64,000 nt of DNA from Escherichia coli. Its GTDB lineage: Bacteria > Pseudomonadota > Gammaproteobacteria > Enterobacterales > Enterobacteriaceae. The stretch is from NCBI RefSeq assembly GCF_003334405.1, contig NZ_QOWM01000014.1; one strand, written 5' to 3'. The notes under the pieces were generated by a model that saw only the letters and a program-made list of their open reading frames with translations, was not told where the DNA came from and did no database searches. A program made the position numbers and the translations under genes. Below, one piece after another: positions 19,831-25,974 of the stretch (within the stretch, counting starts at the first letter, position 1; every line of letters starts with the position of its first letter).

Positions 19831-22091
19831 TACCCCCGACGCAAGTTCTGCGCCGCCTGCACCATGTTCGCCAGTGCCGCGCGGGTTTCTGGCCAGCCGC
19901 GCGTTTTCAGGCCACAGTCCGGGTTGACCCACAGGCGCTCTGCCGGAATGCGTTTTGCCGCTTTCTTCAGCAAGGCTTCAATCCATTCCACGCTCGGTAC
20001 GTTTGGCGAGTGAATGTCATAGACGCCAGGACCGATTTCATTTGGATAATCAAACTCTTCAAACGACTCCAGCAACTCCATGTCGGAACGCGAGGTTTCG
20101 ATGGTGATGACGTCTGCGTCCAGCGCCGCAATCGAATCCATGATGTCGTTGAACTCGCAATAACACATGTGAGTGTGGATTTGTGTGTCATCTTTCGCCA
20201 CGGCGGCGTTGATACGGAAGGCCTCTACGCCCCACTGGAGATACGCATCCCAGTCGCTACGACGCAGCGGTAAACCTTCGCGCAGCGCCGGTTCGTCAAT
20301 CTGGATGATGCCAATTCCAGCGGCTTCCAGATCGGCCACTTCATCACGCAGCGCCAGCGCAATCTGTTTGGCGATGGTTTCACGGCTGACATCTTCACGC
20401 GGGAACGACCAGCAGAGTATGGTCACCGGCCCCGTCAGCATCCCTTTCACCGGTTTGTCGGTCAGCGATTGCGCATACTTCGCCCACTCCACGGTAATCG
20501 GTGCCGGGCGGCTAATGTCACCAATGACAATCGGTGGCTTCACGCAGCGGGAACCGTAGCTCTGTACCCAACCGTTTTGCGTAAAGACAAATCCGTCGAG
20601 GTGCTCGCCAAAGTATTCCACCATGTCATTACGCTCGGCCTCGCCATGTACCAGCACATCCAGTCCCAAACGTTCCTGCTCAACAATGGCCTGCTTGATA
20701 TGTTCCGCAATGCCCGTGCGGTAGTTGTTGGCGTCGAGATTGCCCTTTTTGAAATCCAGACGCAGGGTACGAATTTCCGTGGTTTGCGGGAAGGAACCAA
20801 TCGTGGTGGTCGGCCACGCTGGCAGTTTAAAACGCGCACGCTGGGCTTCAGCACGCACTTCATAGACATTCGCACGCTGGCTGTCCTGGGCGGTGATCGC
20901 CGCCAGACGCTTTTCTACCGCCGGATTATGTACGCGGGTAGAGTGACGACGTGCCTGAATCGGGGCGCTCCACTCTGCCAGAGCTGCCGTGTCACCACTG
21001 TTCAGCGCATCGCGCAGCAGTGCCAGTTCATGGCATTTTTGTAGGGCGAAGGCAAACCAGCTTTTCACTTCTGCATCAAGACGCGTTTCCACGCTCAGGT
21101 CGATGGGGCTGTGCAGCAACGAGCAGGAAGATGCCACCCACAAATCACGTTTGCCGACAATGTCCTTAATTTGCGCATATTTCTCGGTAAGATCGGCGCG
21201 CCAGACGTTACGACCATTGATCAGACCCGCAGACAGCAACCAGTCAGAAGGCAGGCGCTTGTGCAGTTCAGCAACGTCATCTTTACCATGTACGAGGTCA
21301 ACATGCAGACCCTGAACAGGCAGCGCAGTAATCGTGTCGAGATTTGGCGTTACGCCTTCAAAATAGGTGGTCAGCAGCAGTTTCACCTGTCCCTGGAGCG
21401 CGTCGTAAGCGGGTTTGTATGCGTCCAGCCACGCCTGTGGTAGTTCCAGTACCAGCGCGGGTTCATCAATCTGTACCCACTCGATGCCGCGTTTCGCCAG
21501 TTCTGCCAGCACTTGCTGATAAACCGGCAGAATGTCGTTCAGCAGGCTCAGGCGGTCAAATTGTTCACCTTTCACTTTCCCCAGCCACAGCCAGGTAACC
21601 GGCCCCAGCAGCACAGGTTTCACCTTGTGGCCCAGCGCCAGCGCCTCGTCCACTTCGTCCAGCAGCTGCGTCCAGGTCAGTTTGAACTGTTGGCCTTTAA
21701 CGAACTCCGGCACCATGTAGTGATAGTTGGTGTTAAACCATTTGGTCATTTCCGCTGCCGCCGCAGGTTCGCCAGTCGGCGCACGTCCACGACCAATACG
21801 GAACAGGGTGTCGATATCTACCGAACCATCTTTGTTCTGATGACGCGCCGGAACGTTACCCAGCAGCAGACTGGTGGTCAGTACATGATCGTACCAGGCA
21901 AAATCGCCCACCGGCAGCAGGTCGATACCCGCTTGCTTTTGTTGATCCCAGTGACGAGCACGCAATTCACGCCCTACCGCCAGCAGTTCTTCACGCGTGG
22001 AGTTCCCCGCCCAATAACTTTCTTGCGCTTTTTTCAGCTCGCGACGCAGGCCAACGCGAGGGAAACCGAGGGTGTGATTCAATATTGTCAT
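19830..22091 (-). CDS. metE: Cobalamin-independent methionine synthase
   Basis: Track ORF 753 aa, [29 protein letters not shown]...; recognised as MetE. Confidence 0.96.
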
Positions 22092-22240
22092 TTTTTCTTC
22101 CTCTAATTATATGTAAATCCTATGGATTTTGAATTTAGGGAAGGCGGCAAGTTTATTCATCCCCGGGAGCTTACTGAAGTAAGTGACCGGGGTGGAGAAA
22201 CGCAGCCAACGCACCATAAATTTAAAAGACGAAGGATTTT

Positions 22241-22264
22241 AGCCGTCCAGATGTTTACACATCC
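22241..22264. promoter_or_regulatory. Tandem MetJ-box-like repeats in the metE/metR divergent control region
   Basis: agccgtcc-agatgttt-acacatcc: three 8-bp units resembling the AGACGTCT metbox consensus. Confidence 0.5.
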
Positions 22265-22327
22265 ATAATTGGCGGTTACTGTATATTCCTCAAGCGCAAA
22301 TTATTCATGCCGAAGTGAAGGACTTTC

Positions 22328-23281
22328 ATGATCGAAGTAAAACACCTGAAAACGCTACAAGCGTTGCGGAACTGCGGCTCGCTCGCAGCCGCTGCGGCGA
22401 CGTTGCATCAGACGCAATCCGCCCTGTCTCACCAGTTTAGCGATCTGGAACAACGCCTTGGCTTCCGGCTATTTGTGCGTAAGAGCCAGCCGCTACGCTT
22501 TACACCGCAGGGAGAAATCCTGTTGCAACTGGCAAACCAGGTACTGCCGCAAATTAGCCAGGCCCTGCAAGCCTGCAATGAACCGCAGCAGACGCGTCTG
22601 CGCATTGCCATTGAGTGCCATAGCTGTATTCAGTGGCTGACACCCGCGTTAGAAAATTTCCATAAGAACTGGCCGCAGGTAGAGATGGATTTTAAATCGG
22701 GCGTGACATTTGACCCGCAGCCCGCCTTGCAACAGGGAGAGCTGGATCTGGTAATGACGTCCGATATTCTGCCGCGCAGTGGCCTGCATTATTCGCCGAT
22801 GTTCGACTATGAAGTGCGTCTGGTGTTAGCACCTGACCATCCACTGGCGGCGAAAACGCGAATTACACCGGAAGATCTCGCCAGCGAGACGCTATTAATT
22901 TATCCGGTGCAGCGTAGTCGACTGGATGTCTGGCGGCATTTTCTTCAGCCGGCAGGCGTCAGCCCGTCACTGAAAAGCGTCGATAACACCTTATTGTTGA
23001 TTCAGATGGTTGCCGCGCGGATGGGTATTGCCGCGCTACCGCATTGGGTAGTAGAGAGTTTTGAGCGCCAGGGTCTGGTGGTGACCAAAACCCTGGGCGA
23101 AGGCTTGTGGAGCCGACTGTACGCCGCCGTGCGCGATGGCGAGCAGCGTCAGCCAGTTACGGAAGCGTTTATTCGCTCAGCGCGCAATCACGCCTGCGAT
23201 CATCTGCCGTTTGTGAAGAGCGCGGAGCGACCCACTTACGATGCACCCACAGTGAGGCCAGGATCACCAGCGCGCCTGTAA
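22328..23281 (+). CDS. metR: LysR-family transcriptional activator MetR
   Basis: Track ORF 317 aa, [37 protein letters not shown]... (HTH); recognised as MetR. Confidence 0.95.
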
Positions 23282-24068
23282 TAAACGTTGGCCAGTGCGG
23301 CTGTTGGTGCCAGATAGCCAGGTTTACCAGCAGCCCTGCCGGAACGTGCATATTATTCATAATGCCCAGCGTTCCGGCGTCCACCTGCGTCGCGCCGTAG
23401 TTCCACATAAAGTAGCCAATCCCGGAAGCCACCACGCCAAGAAACACCAGAATGCCCCATTGCAGCGTGGTTTGCGGCATTTTCTGCGCATTTCCCAGCA
23501 AGAACCATGCAATCACTGCCACCAGAAACGCGCCAAGATAGAACCACGCAAAGGCGTTATGCTGTGGCATCGGGCGAGTTTCCATCAGGCGTTTGTAACC
23601 CACCATGCCAATGGCAAAAGTGATATTGGAGAGTTGCACCAGCAGCAAGCCAGTCCAGAAATGGTCGGTGACCTGATCATAGCGAATAATCCCGGCACCA
23701 ATCACCGCCAGCAAGGCGCTAAAGGCATAGCCCCAGCGCAGACGGCGCTTACTCATGATGTCATAAATCAGCGTGATGTAGAGCGGCGTCAGCACGGTGA
23801 ACAGCAGCAGCTCGGAAACCGTCAGGTAGAGATAAGCGCGGAAACTCAGCATATACATCACGCCAAGCTGCATCGCGCCCACCAGCATATACAGGCCGAC
23901 CGTTTTCAGGCTATTGCCACGGGTACGCAGAAACGGCAGAAAAACGAGTGCCGCCAGGCCAACGCGCACCAGCACCGCAAAATAGCTATCGACGTGCCCC
24001 GCAAGGTACTCGCCATAAAAGCTAAAGGAGAAGGCCCACAGAATCGTGGTGATGATAAGTAGCGCCAC
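23169..24068 (-). CDS. yigM: DMT/EamA-family inner membrane transporter YigM (biotin transporter BioP)
   Basis: Track ORF 299 aa, polytopic; 3' end overlaps metR 3' end convergently. Confidence 0.9.
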
Positions 24069-24143
24069 AATGGAAAACTCTTTGATTAACGGGTATCCAT
24101 TGTAGCGAAGTATCAGGTTGACAACTGACCAAATAAAGAACGA

Positions 24144-24944
24144 TTACGATAAATAGAGTTTACGCAGATAATGCGGCACCGCGTCGTCGGCATTAGTACC
24201 AATCACTTCCAGCTCGGGATGAAGGTCTTTCAGACGCTGGTGCGCACTGCCCATAATGCAGCCTTTCCCCGCCATCGACAGCATTTCGGCGTCGTTCATC
24301 CCGTCACCAAACGCAATACAATCCTTCAGGCTGTAGCCCAGTTTCTTCGCCACCGCTTCCAGCGCATGGCCTTTTGAAACGCCGCCCGCCATCACTTCCA
24401 GACAGGTTAAGGTAGAGAAACTGACGTTGACGCGATCGCCCCAACGAGCGTTAATCGCCTGCTCCAGCGGCAGCAGTTGTTCATGGGAATCGCAGGTGAA
24501 GAACACTTTGCTGACGCCTTCCGGCTCCAGTAATCCAGGCTCATACAGCGCATATTGGAACACCGCTTCTTTAAAAAAGCGCATCTCTTCCGGGCGATGG
24601 CGATTCATAAACCATTCGTCGTCGCGATAAACGTTAGTAATGATGTCCGGATTGTCGTTGACTACGCCAAACAGATCGCTGGCAATGTCGCGATCCAGGT
24701 TATGAGCAAAAATCAGATTACCATCCAGATCGTGAACGCGCGCACCATTGGAGGTAATCATGTAAGACTTAATCTCCAGATTATCGCGAATTTGCCCCAC
24801 ATCAACGTGGTGACGACCGGTCGCAAACACAAAGTTGATGCCGCGCGCGGTGAGCAGCTTCAGAGTTTCTTTGGCGTAAGGGGATAACGTATGGTCGGGA
24901 GAAAGTAACGTGCCATCTAAATCAGACGCAACAACCTGGTACAT
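24144..24944 (-). CDS. yigL: HAD-family Cof-like sugar/pyridoxal phosphatase
   Basis: Track ORF 308 aa trimmed to MYQVVASDLDGTLLSPDH... (266 aa); DxDGT HAD motif. Confidence 0.9.
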   Translation of the reverse strand: MYQVVASDLDGTLLSPDHTLSPYAKETLKLLTARGINFVFATGRHHVDVGQIRDNLEIKSYMITSNGARVHDLDGNLIFAHNLDRDIASDLFGVVNDNPDIITNVYRDDEWFMNRHRPEEMRFFKEAVFQYALYEPGLLEPEGVSKVFFTCDSHEQLLPLEQAINARWGDRVNVSFSTLTCLEVMAGGVSKGHALEAVAKKLGYSLKDCIAFGDGMNDAEMLSMAGKGCIMGSAHQRLKDLHPELEVIGTNADDAVPHYLRKLYLS

Positions 24945-24951
24945 AAGAAAT

Positions 24952-25974
24952 TTAAACCTCTGTAGAGCGGTTTCCGCTGGGTGAGTTATGCCTGTTGAAA
25001 AAATCAACGATGGCGTGGAGCGCGACTGAGCGCATTGCGTCCTTTTCAAAAAGGATCTCATGGTAAGCACCTTTAATTACCAACGGCCGTCCTCCTTCGA
25101 CAGGATGGCCCGCGGCGGTGCGGAGTTCACAAAAACGGTCATGCATGCGGTTATCCACCACGCGTTCCTCTTCAGCCTGCAAGAGAAGCGTTGGCGTGGC
25201 GTCATCACCCGCACCGGCTAACACCTGTTCGCCAGCCAGAATACTTTCGCGTACCCAATGGTAGGTCGGCCCACCGACGCGAATCGTTGGGTCATCAGCA
25301 TAGAAGCGTAAGTTACGTCGATATCGCTGTCTGCTGTGGGTCAGTACGTTGATAGCAAACGGCAACGCGCGCCAGCGCCCGGTGCCTATTGCATAGCCAT
25401 CACGGAAACGTGGATGCGCTTCGGCCCAGTTGAGGATCTGCCGTGCCATAAATGACGGCATACGAATCACGATCCCAAACATTGGCGCAGTTAGCGCAAT
25501 GGCGTCACATACACCTGGATGGCGTTGCAGAAATAATGTGGAGATCGCACCGCCCATCGAATGTGCCAGTATATAGCGTTTACGCCACGGACCGGGCTGA
25601 ACCTCCTGCTGCCAGAATGCCGCCAGATCATCAACATAATCATTAAAGCGATTAACATGCCCGAGATGCGGATCGGCTAACAGGCGACCGGAACGTCCCT
25701 GCCCGCGATGGTCGATGATTAAGACATCAAACCCCAAATGGAACAGGTCATAGGCCAGTTCCGCATATTTTACGTAGCTCTCAATACGCCCCGGGCAGAT
25801 GACTACCACCCGGTCATGGTGCTGTGCGCGAAAACGGACAAAGCGCACCGGAATGTCATCCACACCAGTAAACTCTGCTTCATCACGCTGACGCCAGAAA
25901 TCAGTCAGCGGTCCCATGGTAAAAGCAGCAAACGCGTTTTCTCTTGTTTCCCAGTCTTTTTGCTGCTGAAACAT
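24952..25974 (-). CDS. pldB: Lysophospholipase L2
   Basis: Track ORF 340 aa, alpha/beta hydrolase with HSMGG; recognised as PldB. Confidence 0.93.
   Translation of the reverse strand: MFQQQKDWETRENAFAAFTMGPLTDFWRQRDEAEFTGVDDIPVRFVRFRAQHHDRVVVICPGRIESYVKYAELAYDLFHLGFDVLIIDHRGQGRSGRLLADPHLGHVNRFNDYVDDLAAFWQQEVQPGPWRKRYILAHSMGGAISTLFLQRHPGVCDAIALTAPMFGIVIRMPSFMARQILNWAEAHPRFRDGYAIGTGRWRALPFAINVLTHSRQRYRRNLRFYADDPTIRVGGPTYHWVRESILAGEQVLAGAGDDATPTLLLQAEEERVVDNRMHDRFCELRTAAGHPVEGGRPLVIKGAYHEILFEKDAMRSVALHAIVDFFNRHNSPSGNRSTEV

What the first reader, a model, noticed from the sequence alone, without database searches (positions are those of the whole stretch)
23169..23281. Convergent 3'-3' overlap of the metR and yigM coding regions (113 nt)
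The metR ORF (+) ends at 23281 and the yigM ORF (-) ends at 23169, so the last ~37 codons of each are encoded on opposite strands of the same DNA. Both stop positions come directly from the ORF track. The two mRNAs must be mutually antisense at their 3' ends, which could couple expression of the methionine regulator and the transporter.
Basis: seen in the sequence. Interest (0 to 1): 0.3.

Follow-up and report, generated by a model that had tools for sequence, protein, structure and literature searches.

The report
Known, ancient metR–bioP tail-to-tail gene overlap
The ends of the E. coli methionine regulator gene metR and the biotin transporter gene yigM/bioP really do share 113 bases on opposite strands, but this is already annotated and published, and the shared stretch looks mostly like each protein's dispensable tail riding on the other's conserved end, not a demonstrated regulatory device.

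Summary
metR (22328-23281, +) and yigM/bioP (23169-24068, -) overlap by 113 nt. RefSeq annotates the same overlap, including in K-12 MG1655, and Côté et al. 2016 mention it explicitly.

The geometry is old. Among 80 Enterobacteriaceae sequences there are no indels; the overlap is 113 nt in 71, 116 in 6, 98 in 2 and 68 in 1. Yersinia, Rahnella, Dickeya and Sodalis place the yigM stop at the same position. Serratia liquefaciens, Pantoea, Erwinia and Buchnera have no overlap.

Codon-position variation splits the overlap into three parts:
- 23169-23221: metR is constrained, and the YigM tail (284-299) is mostly a passenger.
- 23222-23233: constrained in both frames.
- 23234-23281: yigM is constrained, and the MetR tail (303-317) varies freely and is predicted disordered.

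Stops are sparse in these antisense frames, so run-on tails of this length are expected by chance. No intrinsic terminator is present. Published data place a Rho-dependent termination region on the yigM strand nearby.

The idea that this couples expression has no support so far. Verdict: real, conserved, already known, low interest.

The parts
22328..23281 (+). metR coding sequence (317 aa, LysR-type regulator of metE/metH)
   Evidence: ORF. NCBIfam NF011950 MetR equivalog scores 741 bits against a cutoff of 382. RefSeq annotation. PDB 5FO5 is the E. coli MetR N-terminal domain.
23169..24068 (-). yigM/bioP coding sequence (299 aa, DMT/EamA biotin transporter)
   Evidence: ORF. TIGR00950 scores 309.9 bits against a cutoff of 230.2 and covers residues 11-273 only. 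RefSeq calls it 'biotin transporter'. Function is shown in PMC5120140.
23169..23281 (.). 113-nt convergent (3'-3') coding overlap. metR position 1 lies opposite yigM position 1, metR position 2 opposite yigM position 3, and metR position 3 opposite yigM position 2.
   Evidence: Coordinates. The frame relation follows from those coordinates and is borne out by the variation pattern.
23169..23221 (.). Segment A: conserved end of MetR (residues 281-298, last helix and strand of the regulatory domain) opposite the YigM stop and hydrophilic tail (residues 284-299). Variation sits at the metR wobble position.
   Evidence: Per-site entropies. The YigM tail has amino-acid entropy 0.91 against 0.34 for the rest of YigM. 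metR wobble entropy is mildly reduced, 0.68 against an amino-acid-matched 0.97, P=0.003. The MetR AF2 model has helix 276-292 and strand 296-298 at high pLDDT. PDB 4AB5 aligns to residues 87-296.
23222..23233 (.). Segment B: 12 nt constrained in both frames (MetR A299-E300-R301-P302 opposite YigM R283-P282-A281-V280). It is almost invariant at all three codon positions in 80 sequences.
   Evidence: metR wobble entropy is 0.07 against an expected 1.11, and yigM wobble entropy is 0.11 against an expected 1.25. No resample out of 20000 was as low. Per-site table.
23234..23281 (.). Segment C: end of the last YigM transmembrane helix (residues 263-279, [17 protein letters not shown]) opposite the MetR tail (residues 303-317) and the metR stop. 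Variation sits at the yigM wobble position.
   Evidence: The MetR tail has amino-acid entropy 1.27 against 0.23 for the rest. yigM wobble entropy is 1.14 against an expected 1.11, so it is not reduced. MetR pLDDT is below 50 at 302-314. Distant MetR homologues end 10-20 residues earlier.
22980..23168 (-). C-rich, G-poor untranslated stretch of the yigM-sense RNA just past its stop. It is a candidate Rho loading region (inferred).
   Evidence: The + strand GC skew is +0.10 to +0.28 here, the highest in the 1.8-kb region. A Rho termination region on this strand was reported by Adams et al. 2021 with its peak at MG1655 4,011,704, which is window position about 23440.
23340..23540 (+). C-rich, G-poor untranslated stretch of the metR-sense RNA 60-260 nt past its stop. 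It is a candidate Rho loading region (inferred only).
   Evidence: The + strand GC skew is -0.14 to -0.35 here, the lowest in the region. No terminator-like hairpin was found. No experimental 3'-end data were found.

Best explanation
This is a genuine and evolutionarily old tail-to-tail overlap of two real genes, and it is best read as a frozen structural arrangement. The conserved ends of the two proteins lie back to back with no spacer and share only about 12 nt (MetR to about residue 302, YigM to about residue 282). Each reading frame then runs on into the antisense of the other gene until it meets a stop. In this stop-poor antisense frame that takes about 15-17 more codons. The MetR tail (303-317) is therefore an unconstrained, probably disordered by-product of the codons for the last YigM transmembrane helix. 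The YigM tail (284-299) is largely dictated by the codons for the last helix of MetR and shows at most weak selection of its own. Because every base serves one or both proteins, indels are excluded and both stop positions are held in place. Because there is no room for an intrinsic terminator, each transcript must read into the other gene as untranslated, C-rich antisense RNA, and is most likely ended by Rho. Shown here: the geometry, its conservation, the split of constraint between frames, and the lack of an intrinsic terminator. Taken from the literature: Rho dependence on the yigM strand, and disruption of yigM by a metR deletion. Inferred: Rho termination of metR, the origin by loss of a spacer, and the absence of a regulatory role.
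For: Geometry and annotation. The overlap is noted in the literature, and the Keio metR deletion phenocopies yigM loss (PMC5120140).

Conservation: there are no indels across the whole 1741-nt metR+yigM span in 80 Enterobacteriaceae sequences. The overlap is 113 nt in 71, 116 in 6, 98 in 2 and 68 in 1. The yigM stop lies 841 nt after the metR start in Yersinia, Rahnella, Dickeya and Sodalis, as in E. coli.

Split of constraint: the sharp switch in variation from metR wobble to yigM wobble is shown.

Family cores end before the tails: 4AB5 aligns to MetR 87-296, TIGR00950 covers YigM 11-273, distant MetR homologues end at about 296-305, and MetR pLDDT is below 50 at 302-314.

Non-overlapping orthologues: their YigM proteins end shortly after the HRRW motif, 10-12 residues before the E. 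coli end in Serratia liquefaciens (287 aa) and Pantoea (289 aa), with unrelated sequence. The long '..QTADDR..' tail occurs only where the gene overlaps metR.

Chance expectation for run-on tails: P = 0.25-0.62.

Dispensability hints: natural YigM truncations at codons 279, 285 and 286 exist in E. coli, a Kluyvera-like genome and Salmonella.

Termination: there is no terminator-like site in 22000-24300 and no unusually stable fold. A Rho termination region lies on the yigM strand (score 5.07, p=1.3e-12). In Serratia liquefaciens, where the genes are separated, the 32-nt spacer carries a canonical terminator hairpin.
Against: metR wobble variation opposite the YigM tail is somewhat reduced (0.68 against 0.97, P=0.003; 0.80 against 1.00, P=0.045 without F281 and I282). 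YigM E299 and the TAA stop are invariant in 80 of 80 sequences. Part of the YigM tail may therefore be selected in its own right, or an RNA-level signal may sit there.

Identical geometry retained across at least three families could also reflect selection for the overlap itself.

The entropy statistics are not corrected for phylogeny, and the segments are short (3-13 codons each).

The Rho peak comes from 800-nt windows and lies 271 nt upstream of the yigM stop, so it does not fix the 3' end.

No transcript data were found for the metR strand.
Confidence: 0.75

Rival explanations
1. The overlap is a cis-regulatory device of the excludon or antisense type. Convergent transcription through the shared 113 nt and beyond causes polymerase collision or RNase III cleavage of the mRNA duplex. 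Expression of the methionine regulator and the biotin importer would then be inversely coupled. Such a link is conceivable because biotin synthesis consumes S-adenosylmethionine; that is background knowledge, not tested here.
For: Full-length mRNAs are necessarily complementary over at least 113 nt. There is no intrinsic terminator. Read-through on the yigM strand is normally limited by Rho and rises about five-fold with bicyclomycin. The geometry is conserved across Enterobacteriaceae, Yersinia, Rahnella, Dickeya and Sodalis.
Against: No expression data show coupling. Neither gene occurs in the supplementary files held as text for the p19 RNase III dsRNA capture study, and no Term-seq 3' ends are listed for either gene. 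Serratia liquefaciens, Pantoea and Erwinia keep both genes without any overlap, and Serratia has a terminator between them, so the overlap is dispensable. Conservation is fully accounted for by protein-coding constraint in one frame or the other.
Confidence: 0.12
2. Both C-terminal tails are functional parts of their proteins, and the overlap is kept by true dual-coding selection along its whole length.
For: A 12-nt core (23222-23233) is clearly constrained in both frames. metR wobble variation opposite the YigM tail is reduced (P=0.003). YigM E299 and several tail residues (R291, R293, A296) are highly conserved.
Against: The MetR tail 303-317 has amino-acid entropy 1.27 and imposes no reduction on yigM wobble variation (1.14 against 1.11). 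It varies in length (311-318 aa) and is predicted disordered. Two of every three positions in the YigM tail are fixed by MetR residues, so much of its apparent conservation is inherited. Non-overlapping orthologues lack the tail. Truncated YigM forms persist in nature.
Confidence: 0.15
3. The overlap is an annotation or sequence artefact, caused by a wrong stop, a frameshift or a spurious ORF.
For: Pallejà et al. [quoted passage not shown]
Against: Both limits are stop codons read directly from the sequence. The region is present in all 5426 complete E. coli genomes, and the annotated geometry is the same in the strains examined. It is kept without indels in 80 Enterobacteriaceae sequences. 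Both genes have experimentally supported functions.
Confidence: 0.01

Closest known systems
Conserved long convergent (tail-to-tail) gene overlaps in prokaryotes (Rogozin et al. 2002, as cited in Pallejà et al. 2008; Pallejà et al. 2008, PMC2478687)
   Same: Two real genes on opposite strands share their 3' ends. The overlap arises from 3' extensions of the reading frames. Only the convergent orientation tolerates overlaps longer than 60 bp.
   Different: At 113 nt and conserved across at least three families of Enterobacterales, it lies at the long and old end of the range. Pallejà et al. found most plausible long convergent overlaps conserved only in very close species.
The metR/yigM (bioP) overlap itself, as annotated in E. 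coli K-12 and noted by Côté et al. 2016 (PMC5120140)
   Same: It is the identical feature. [quoted passage not shown]
   Different: That paper used the overlap only to explain a genetic interaction. The split of constraint between frames, the taxonomic depth and the termination context reported here were not part of it.
Excludons / overlapping 3' UTRs of convergent genes (reviewed in PMC7154746; ExcludonFinder PMC12288877)
   Same: Convergent neighbours whose transcripts must overlap, with no terminator between them.
   Different: In an excludon the overlap lies in untranslated regions, and mutual exclusion of expression has been shown. Here the overlap is coding in both directions, and no expression effect is known.
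Bidirectional intrinsic terminators between convergent genes
   Same: Both are ways of ending two convergent transcription units. Serratia liquefaciens has a terminator-like hairpin, detected on the metR strand, in the 32-nt spacer between its metR and yigM.
   Different: The window has no such hairpin and no spacer. Termination is probably Rho-dependent and lies inside the partner gene.

Membership tests
Convergent overlapping gene pair (real, not misannotated) | Each gene's stop codon lies inside the other gene's reading frame on the opposite strand | tested here: met
   The metR stop is at 23279-23281 and the yigM stop at 23169-23171.
Convergent overlapping gene pair (real, not misannotated) | Both ORFs are genuine protein-coding genes | tested here: met
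   NF011950 MetR scores 741 bits against a cutoff of 382, and TIGR00950 scores 309.9 against 230.2. Purifying selection is seen in both frames. Function is documented in the literature and by PDB 5FO5.
Convergent overlapping gene pair (real, not misannotated) | Gene lengths agree with orthologues, and the overlap is conserved in other species | tested here: met
   YigM is 299 aa in 79 of 80 sequences and MetR is 317 aa in 72 of 80. The same geometry is found in Yersinia, Rahnella, Dickeya and Sodalis.
Dual-coding sequence under selection in both frames | Synonymous variation of each gene is suppressed where it overlaps the other | tested here: inconclusive
   This is met strongly for only 12 nt (23222-23233). 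It is weak for metR 281-298 (0.68 against 0.97, P=0.003). It is not met for yigM 263-279 (1.14 against 1.11).
Excludon / regulatory antisense overlap | Overlapping transcripts from both strands detected in vivo | not testable with these tools
   Only indirect evidence exists: the logical need for each transcript to reach its stop, and a Rho termination region on the yigM strand. Neither gene appears in the p19 dsRNA supplements held as text.
Excludon / regulatory antisense overlap | Expression of one gene lowers expression of the other in cis | not testable with these tools
   No data were found.
Convergent genes sharing a bidirectional intrinsic terminator | GC-rich hairpin flanked by A- and T-tracts between or at the two stops | tested here: not met
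   There are 0 terminator-like sites in 22000-24300, and fold z-scores are -0.8 and -1.4. Serratia liquefaciens has one in its spacer.

The most novel reading that the evidence does not exclude
The overlap, kept with identical geometry since before Enterobacteriaceae, Yersiniaceae and Pectobacteriaceae diverged, may be selected as such. Terminator-less convergent transcription, limited by Rho, would make metR and bioP expression mutually antagonistic. That would link methionine/SAM status to biotin uptake. The invariant YigM E299-TAA end and the lowered metR synonymous variation opposite the YigM tail would then reflect an RNA-level or tail-level function.
Probability: 0.1. Interest if true: 0.5.

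Novelty: already known. Interest (0 to 1): 0.15.

Why it matters
The practical consequence is the main one. Any deletion or insertion in the 3' part of metR also damages bioP, and the reverse holds too. The Keio metR mutant behaves as a bioP mutant (PMC5120140). Phenotypes assigned to either gene in deletion collections, Tn-seq or CRISPRi screens therefore need checking.

A change that is silent in one gene can be severe in the other. In a natural E. coli lineage, the synonymous metR change P302 CCC>CCT is a W279 stop in bioP.

As evolutionary biology, it is a clean and unusually old example of how a convergent overlap is partitioned. Each protein's disposable tail is written on the other's conserved end, and only about four codons are truly shared. 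It does not open a new question unless the untested regulatory coupling turns out to be real.

Tried and rejected
1. Intrinsic or bidirectional terminator in or near the overlap. None was found, and folds of either strand are not unusually stable.

2. Known RNA families. There were only two sub-threshold Rfam hits, and both lie in the metE-metR intergenic region, not in the overlap.

3. Transcript 3'-end and dsRNA data.
- The Dar & Sorek 2018 supplements are not held as text.
- The SMRT-Cappable-seq supplements do not mention either gene.
- The p19 RNase III capture supplements do not mention either gene.
- The ExcludonFinder supplements are not held as text.
- Only Adams et al. 2021 gave one entry, a Rho region listed as 'internal yigM'.

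4. Idea that Serratia resolved an ancestral overlap by duplicating the shared segment. The Serratia MetR tail resembles the Dickeya and Yersinia tails at peptide level. At DNA level, however, the Serratia metR tail aligns with its own yigM 3' end no better than shuffled sequence does (score 15 against a shuffle mean of 15.9). Its alignments to the E. coli and Yersinia overlaps also scored low (18 and 16). The direction of change is left open.

5. An 8-nt inverted repeat (CGTTTATT / AATAAACG) that embeds the two stop codons looked like a possible long-range stem. It is present at full length in only 3 of 80 sequences, so it was rejected as a conserved element.

6. AlphaFold model of YigM. Mean pLDDT was 53.9 from a shallow alignment, which is too poor to use beyond the position of the last helix.

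7. Buchnera as an outgroup. It lacks yigM altogether, and genome reduction makes it uninformative about the ancestral state.

8. Literature searches for yigM with 'antisense' returned nothing.

Full report
**1. The observation**

The ORF list shows metR at 22328..23281 (+, 317 aa) and yigM at 23169..24068 (-, 299 aa). The sequence shows the metR TAA at 23279-23281 and the reverse-complement TAA of yigM at 23169-23171. The shared stretch is 113 nt. Both limits are stop codons, so no start-codon choice is involved.

The window is E. coli. A 1.8-kb query matched all 5426 complete E. coli genomes at 95-100% identity. RefSeq annotates the same overlap in a strain 100% identical over that query and in K-12 MG1655, where bioP is 4011076-4011975 (+) and metR is 4011863-4012816 (-).

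The overlap is also stated in print. Côté et al. [quoted passage not shown] They show that the Keio metR deletion behaves like a yigM (biotin transporter) mutant. The finding is therefore correct and already known.

**2. Conservation**

A scan of one genome per species returned the 80 closest yigM loci, all Enterobacteriaceae. One locus, Leclercia NCTC13032, has a 1-nt insertion in metR and was dropped. The remaining 79 loci plus the window align across the whole metR+yigM span (1741 nt) without a single indel.

| Feature | Count among 80 sequences |
|---|---|
| yigM stop at codon 300 | 79 |
| metR stop at codon 318 | 72 |
| metR stop at codon 319 | 6 |
| metR stop at codon 313 | 2 |
| Overlap 113 nt | 71 |
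| Overlap 116 nt | 6 |
| Overlap 98 nt | 2 |
| Overlap 68 nt | 1 |

These counts come from one search, which corrects the cruder count.

To reach beyond the family I searched with the Buchnera MetR. It is about equally distant from all Enterobacterales, so it gave a taxonomically spread hit list. I then fetched loci for individual genera.

| Genus (locus) | Arrangement |
|---|---|
| Yersinia (L086) | overlap 113 nt |
| Dickeya (L088) | overlap 98 nt |
| Rahnella (L090) | overlap 95 nt |
| Sodalis (L093) | overlap 95 nt |
| Serratia liquefaciens (L087) | no overlap; 32-nt spacer; YigM 287 aa |
| Pantoea (L089), Erwinia (L092) | a DUF1456 gene lies between the two genes |
| Serratia rubidaea (L091) | a porin gene lies downstream of metR |
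| Buchnera (L083) | no yigM |

In all four overlapping outgroups the yigM stop lies exactly 841 nt after the metR start, as in E. coli. The arrangement therefore predates the split of Enterobacteriaceae, Yersiniaceae and Pectobacteriaceae, but it is not obligatory.

**3. Anatomy of the overlap**

The frames are offset so that:
- metR codon position 1 faces yigM position 1;
- metR position 2 faces yigM position 3;
- metR position 3 faces yigM position 2.

A synonymous wobble change in one gene therefore always changes position 2 in the other. This makes it possible to read which gene is under constraint at each site. Per-site entropies over the 80 sequences show a sharp switch.

- **Up to 23221.** Variation sits at the metR wobble. 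MetR residues up to 298 are conserved, and YigM residues 284-299 vary as a consequence.
- **23222-23233.** This stretch encodes MetR A299-E300-R301-P302 and YigM V280-A281-P282-R283. All three positions are almost invariant.
- **From 23234 on.** Variation sits at the yigM wobble. YigM residues 263-279 are conserved, and MetR residues 303-317 are highly variable.

| Quantity | Observed | Comparison | P |
|---|---|---|---|
| Amino-acid entropy, MetR tail 303-317 | 1.27 | 0.23 (rest of MetR) | - |
| Amino-acid entropy, YigM tail 284-299 | 0.91 | 0.34 (rest of YigM) | - |
| yigM wobble entropy opposite the MetR tail | 1.14 | 1.11 expected | 0.58 |
| metR wobble entropy opposite the YigM tail | 0.68 | 0.97 expected | 0.003 |
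| Same, without F281 and I282 | 0.80 | 1.00 expected | 0.045 |
| metR wobble entropy, central 4 codons | 0.07 | 1.11 expected | none of 20000 resamples as low |
| yigM wobble entropy, central 4 codons | 0.11 | 1.25 expected | none of 20000 resamples as low |

'Expected' values come from resampling codons for the same amino acid in the non-overlapping parts of both genes.

Three conclusions follow:
- the MetR tail is a free passenger;
- the YigM tail is mostly a passenger with a hint of selection of its own, strongest at its last residue E299 and the stop, both invariant in 80 of 80 sequences;
- only about 12 nt are truly dual-coding.

These statistics treat species and codons as independent and rest on short segments. 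They indicate direction and are not precise tests.

**4. Independent support that the tails lie outside the protein cores**

- The N. meningitidis MetR regulatory-domain structure 4AB5 aligns to E. coli residues 87-296.
- Distant MetR homologues are 296-312 aa long and align only to about residues 288-305.
- An AlphaFold model of MetR has mean pLDDT 88.9. Confidence is high to about residue 300 and below 50 at 302-314.
- The TIGR00950 family model covers YigM residues 11-273 only.
- Hydropathy places the last hydrophobic segment at about 260-275, followed by a charged tail.
- The YigM structure model is too poor to add more.
- Where yigM does not overlap metR, YigM ends shortly after the HRRW motif with unrelated sequence. 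This is 10-12 residues before the E. coli end in Serratia (287 aa) and Pantoea (289 aa). The long '...QTADDR...' tail is found only in overlapping species, where it is the antisense reading of the conserved MetR 'ACDHLPFV'.

**5. Is the length surprising?**

Stops are rare in these antisense frames. The density is 2.8% per codon for the yigM frame over antisense metR and 6.4% for the metR frame over antisense yigM. A run-on of 15-26 codons therefore has probability 0.25-0.62. Once the two cores abut, an overlap of about 100 nt is the expected outcome and needs no special selection.

Such overlaps are uncommon. Among the well-characterised gene overlaps in 338 genomes that Pallejà et al. 2008 analysed, 178 convergent overlaps exceeded 60 bp. 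Only 54 of them were judged possibly real, and most of those were conserved only in close relatives. This case is thus a long and unusually old example of a known kind.

**6. Transcription**

- No terminator-like hairpin exists in 22000-24300.
- Neither strand of the overlap folds unusually well, with z-scores of -0.8 and -1.4.
- The RNA just past each stop is C-rich and G-poor. These two stretches have the most extreme GC skews in the 1.8-kb region. That is typical of antisense RNA and favourable for Rho.
- Adams et al. 2021 (PMC7815308, supplementary file 2) list a Rho termination region on the yigM strand. Its peak is at 4,011,704, which is window position about 23440 and 271 nt before the yigM stop. 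Reads were 98 upstream and 21 downstream without bicyclomycin, and 300 and 326 with it. The Rho score is 5.07 and p = 1.3e-12.
- That study used 800-nt windows. The result supports Rho-dependent ending of yigM-sense transcription around its 3' end or within antisense metR, but it does not fix a site.
- No entry exists for the metR strand, and no Term-seq 3' end is listed for either gene.
- In Serratia liquefaciens, where the genes are separate, the 32-nt spacer holds a canonical terminator hairpin. This is what the overlapping species have no room for.

**7.

Mutual complementarity of full-length mRNAs follows from the geometry. Coupling of expression remains a hypothesis. I found no expression, dsRNA or RNase III evidence for this locus. 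Three lineages do without the overlap. All of the conservation can be explained by protein-coding constraint in one frame or the other. I give the regulatory reading about 0.1.

**8. Natural variants**

| Variant | Where |
|---|---|
| YigM stops at codon 285 (284 aa) | a Kluyvera-like genome, L027/P0075 |
| YigM 285 aa | Salmonella Gaminara, P0076 |
| YigM 278 aa | an E. coli lineage seen on many contigs, P0271 |

In the E. coli lineage the cause is C>T at the position equivalent to 23233. This change is synonymous in metR (P302 CCC>CCT) and turns yigM W279 TGG into TAG. MetR's C-terminal 29 residues, including P302, are unchanged, and the overlap shrinks to 50 nt. These variants suggest that the distal YigM tail is dispensable. 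They could equally mean that bioP function is being lost, which E. coli can tolerate because it makes its own biotin.

**9. Verdict**

The overlap is real, conserved across at least three families of Enterobacterales, already annotated and already noted in the literature. The best explanation is a frozen structural arrangement. Mostly passenger tails lie on the partner's conserved end, and termination is by Rho inside the partner gene. Its main importance is practical: mutations in one gene can hit the other. Novelty: already known. Interest: low.

Noticed in passing
window 23233 (equivalent position in L094/L095, locus about 2336): An E. coli lineage seen on many contigs carries C>T here. The change is synonymous in metR (P302 CCC>CCT) but turns yigM W279 into a TAG stop. 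This gives a 278-aa BioP and shrinks the overlap to 50 nt. The position is invariant among the 80 species representatives.
   Followed up: yes
L002 1529-3348 (E. coli strain Z135-6, NZ_CP159632.1): In this strain both metR and bioP are annotated as truncated pseudogenes. A 636-nt 'hypothetical protein' gene sits where their 3' halves and the overlap should be. A natural rearrangement has removed the overlap.
   Followed up: no
L027 (Enterobacteriaceae bacterium MGYG-HGUT-00110); proteins P0075, P0076: YigM is naturally truncated to 284 aa in a Kluyvera-like genome and to 285 aa in Salmonella serovar Gaminara. The premature stops lie in the tail that is antisense to MetR V296/K297.
   Followed up: partly
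L087 3452-3483 (Serratia liquefaciens-like metagenome contig): metR (316 aa) and yigM (287 aa) do not overlap here. The 32-nt spacer carries a GC-rich hairpin followed by a T-tract (GGGCAGCTCGCGCTTGGGCTGCCC GTTTATTT), which is a likely intrinsic terminator.
   Followed up: partly
L067 (Leclercia adecarboxylata NCTC13032), equivalent to window about 23149: A single-base insertion puts metR out of frame. This is either a real frameshift or an assembly error in this genome.
   Followed up: no
window 23166-23173 and 23280-23287: The two stop codons sit in an 8-nt inverted repeat (CGTTTATT / AATAAACG), so both genes end '..AATAAACG' in their own sense. The full 8 nt occur in only 3 of 80 sequences, so this is probably coincidence.
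   Followed up: yes
window 22113-22287 (+), metE-metR intergenic region: There are weak, sub-threshold Rfam matches to Ysr49 (27.7 bits against a gathering score of 95) and V_AS5 (26.7 against 96). They are most likely chance or reflect the metE/metR control region.
   Followed up: no
window 23295-24062 (+): A 255-aa ORF runs antisense to almost all of yigM in a third frame. It is one of several long stop-poor antisense frames here, and nothing suggests it is a gene.
   Followed up: no
window 24144-25070 (-); protein P0282: The mechanical ORF list extends yigL to 308 aa from an upstream GTG, whereas RefSeq annotates 266 aa. Some assemblies carry a 591-aa yigL-yigM fusion call.
   Followed up: no
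L083, L089, L092, L091: Synteny downstream of metR differs outside the overlapping lineages. Buchnera has metE-metR-yigL with no yigM. Pantoea and Erwinia have a DUF1456 gene between metR and the EamA gene. Serratia rubidaea has a porin gene.
   Followed up: partly
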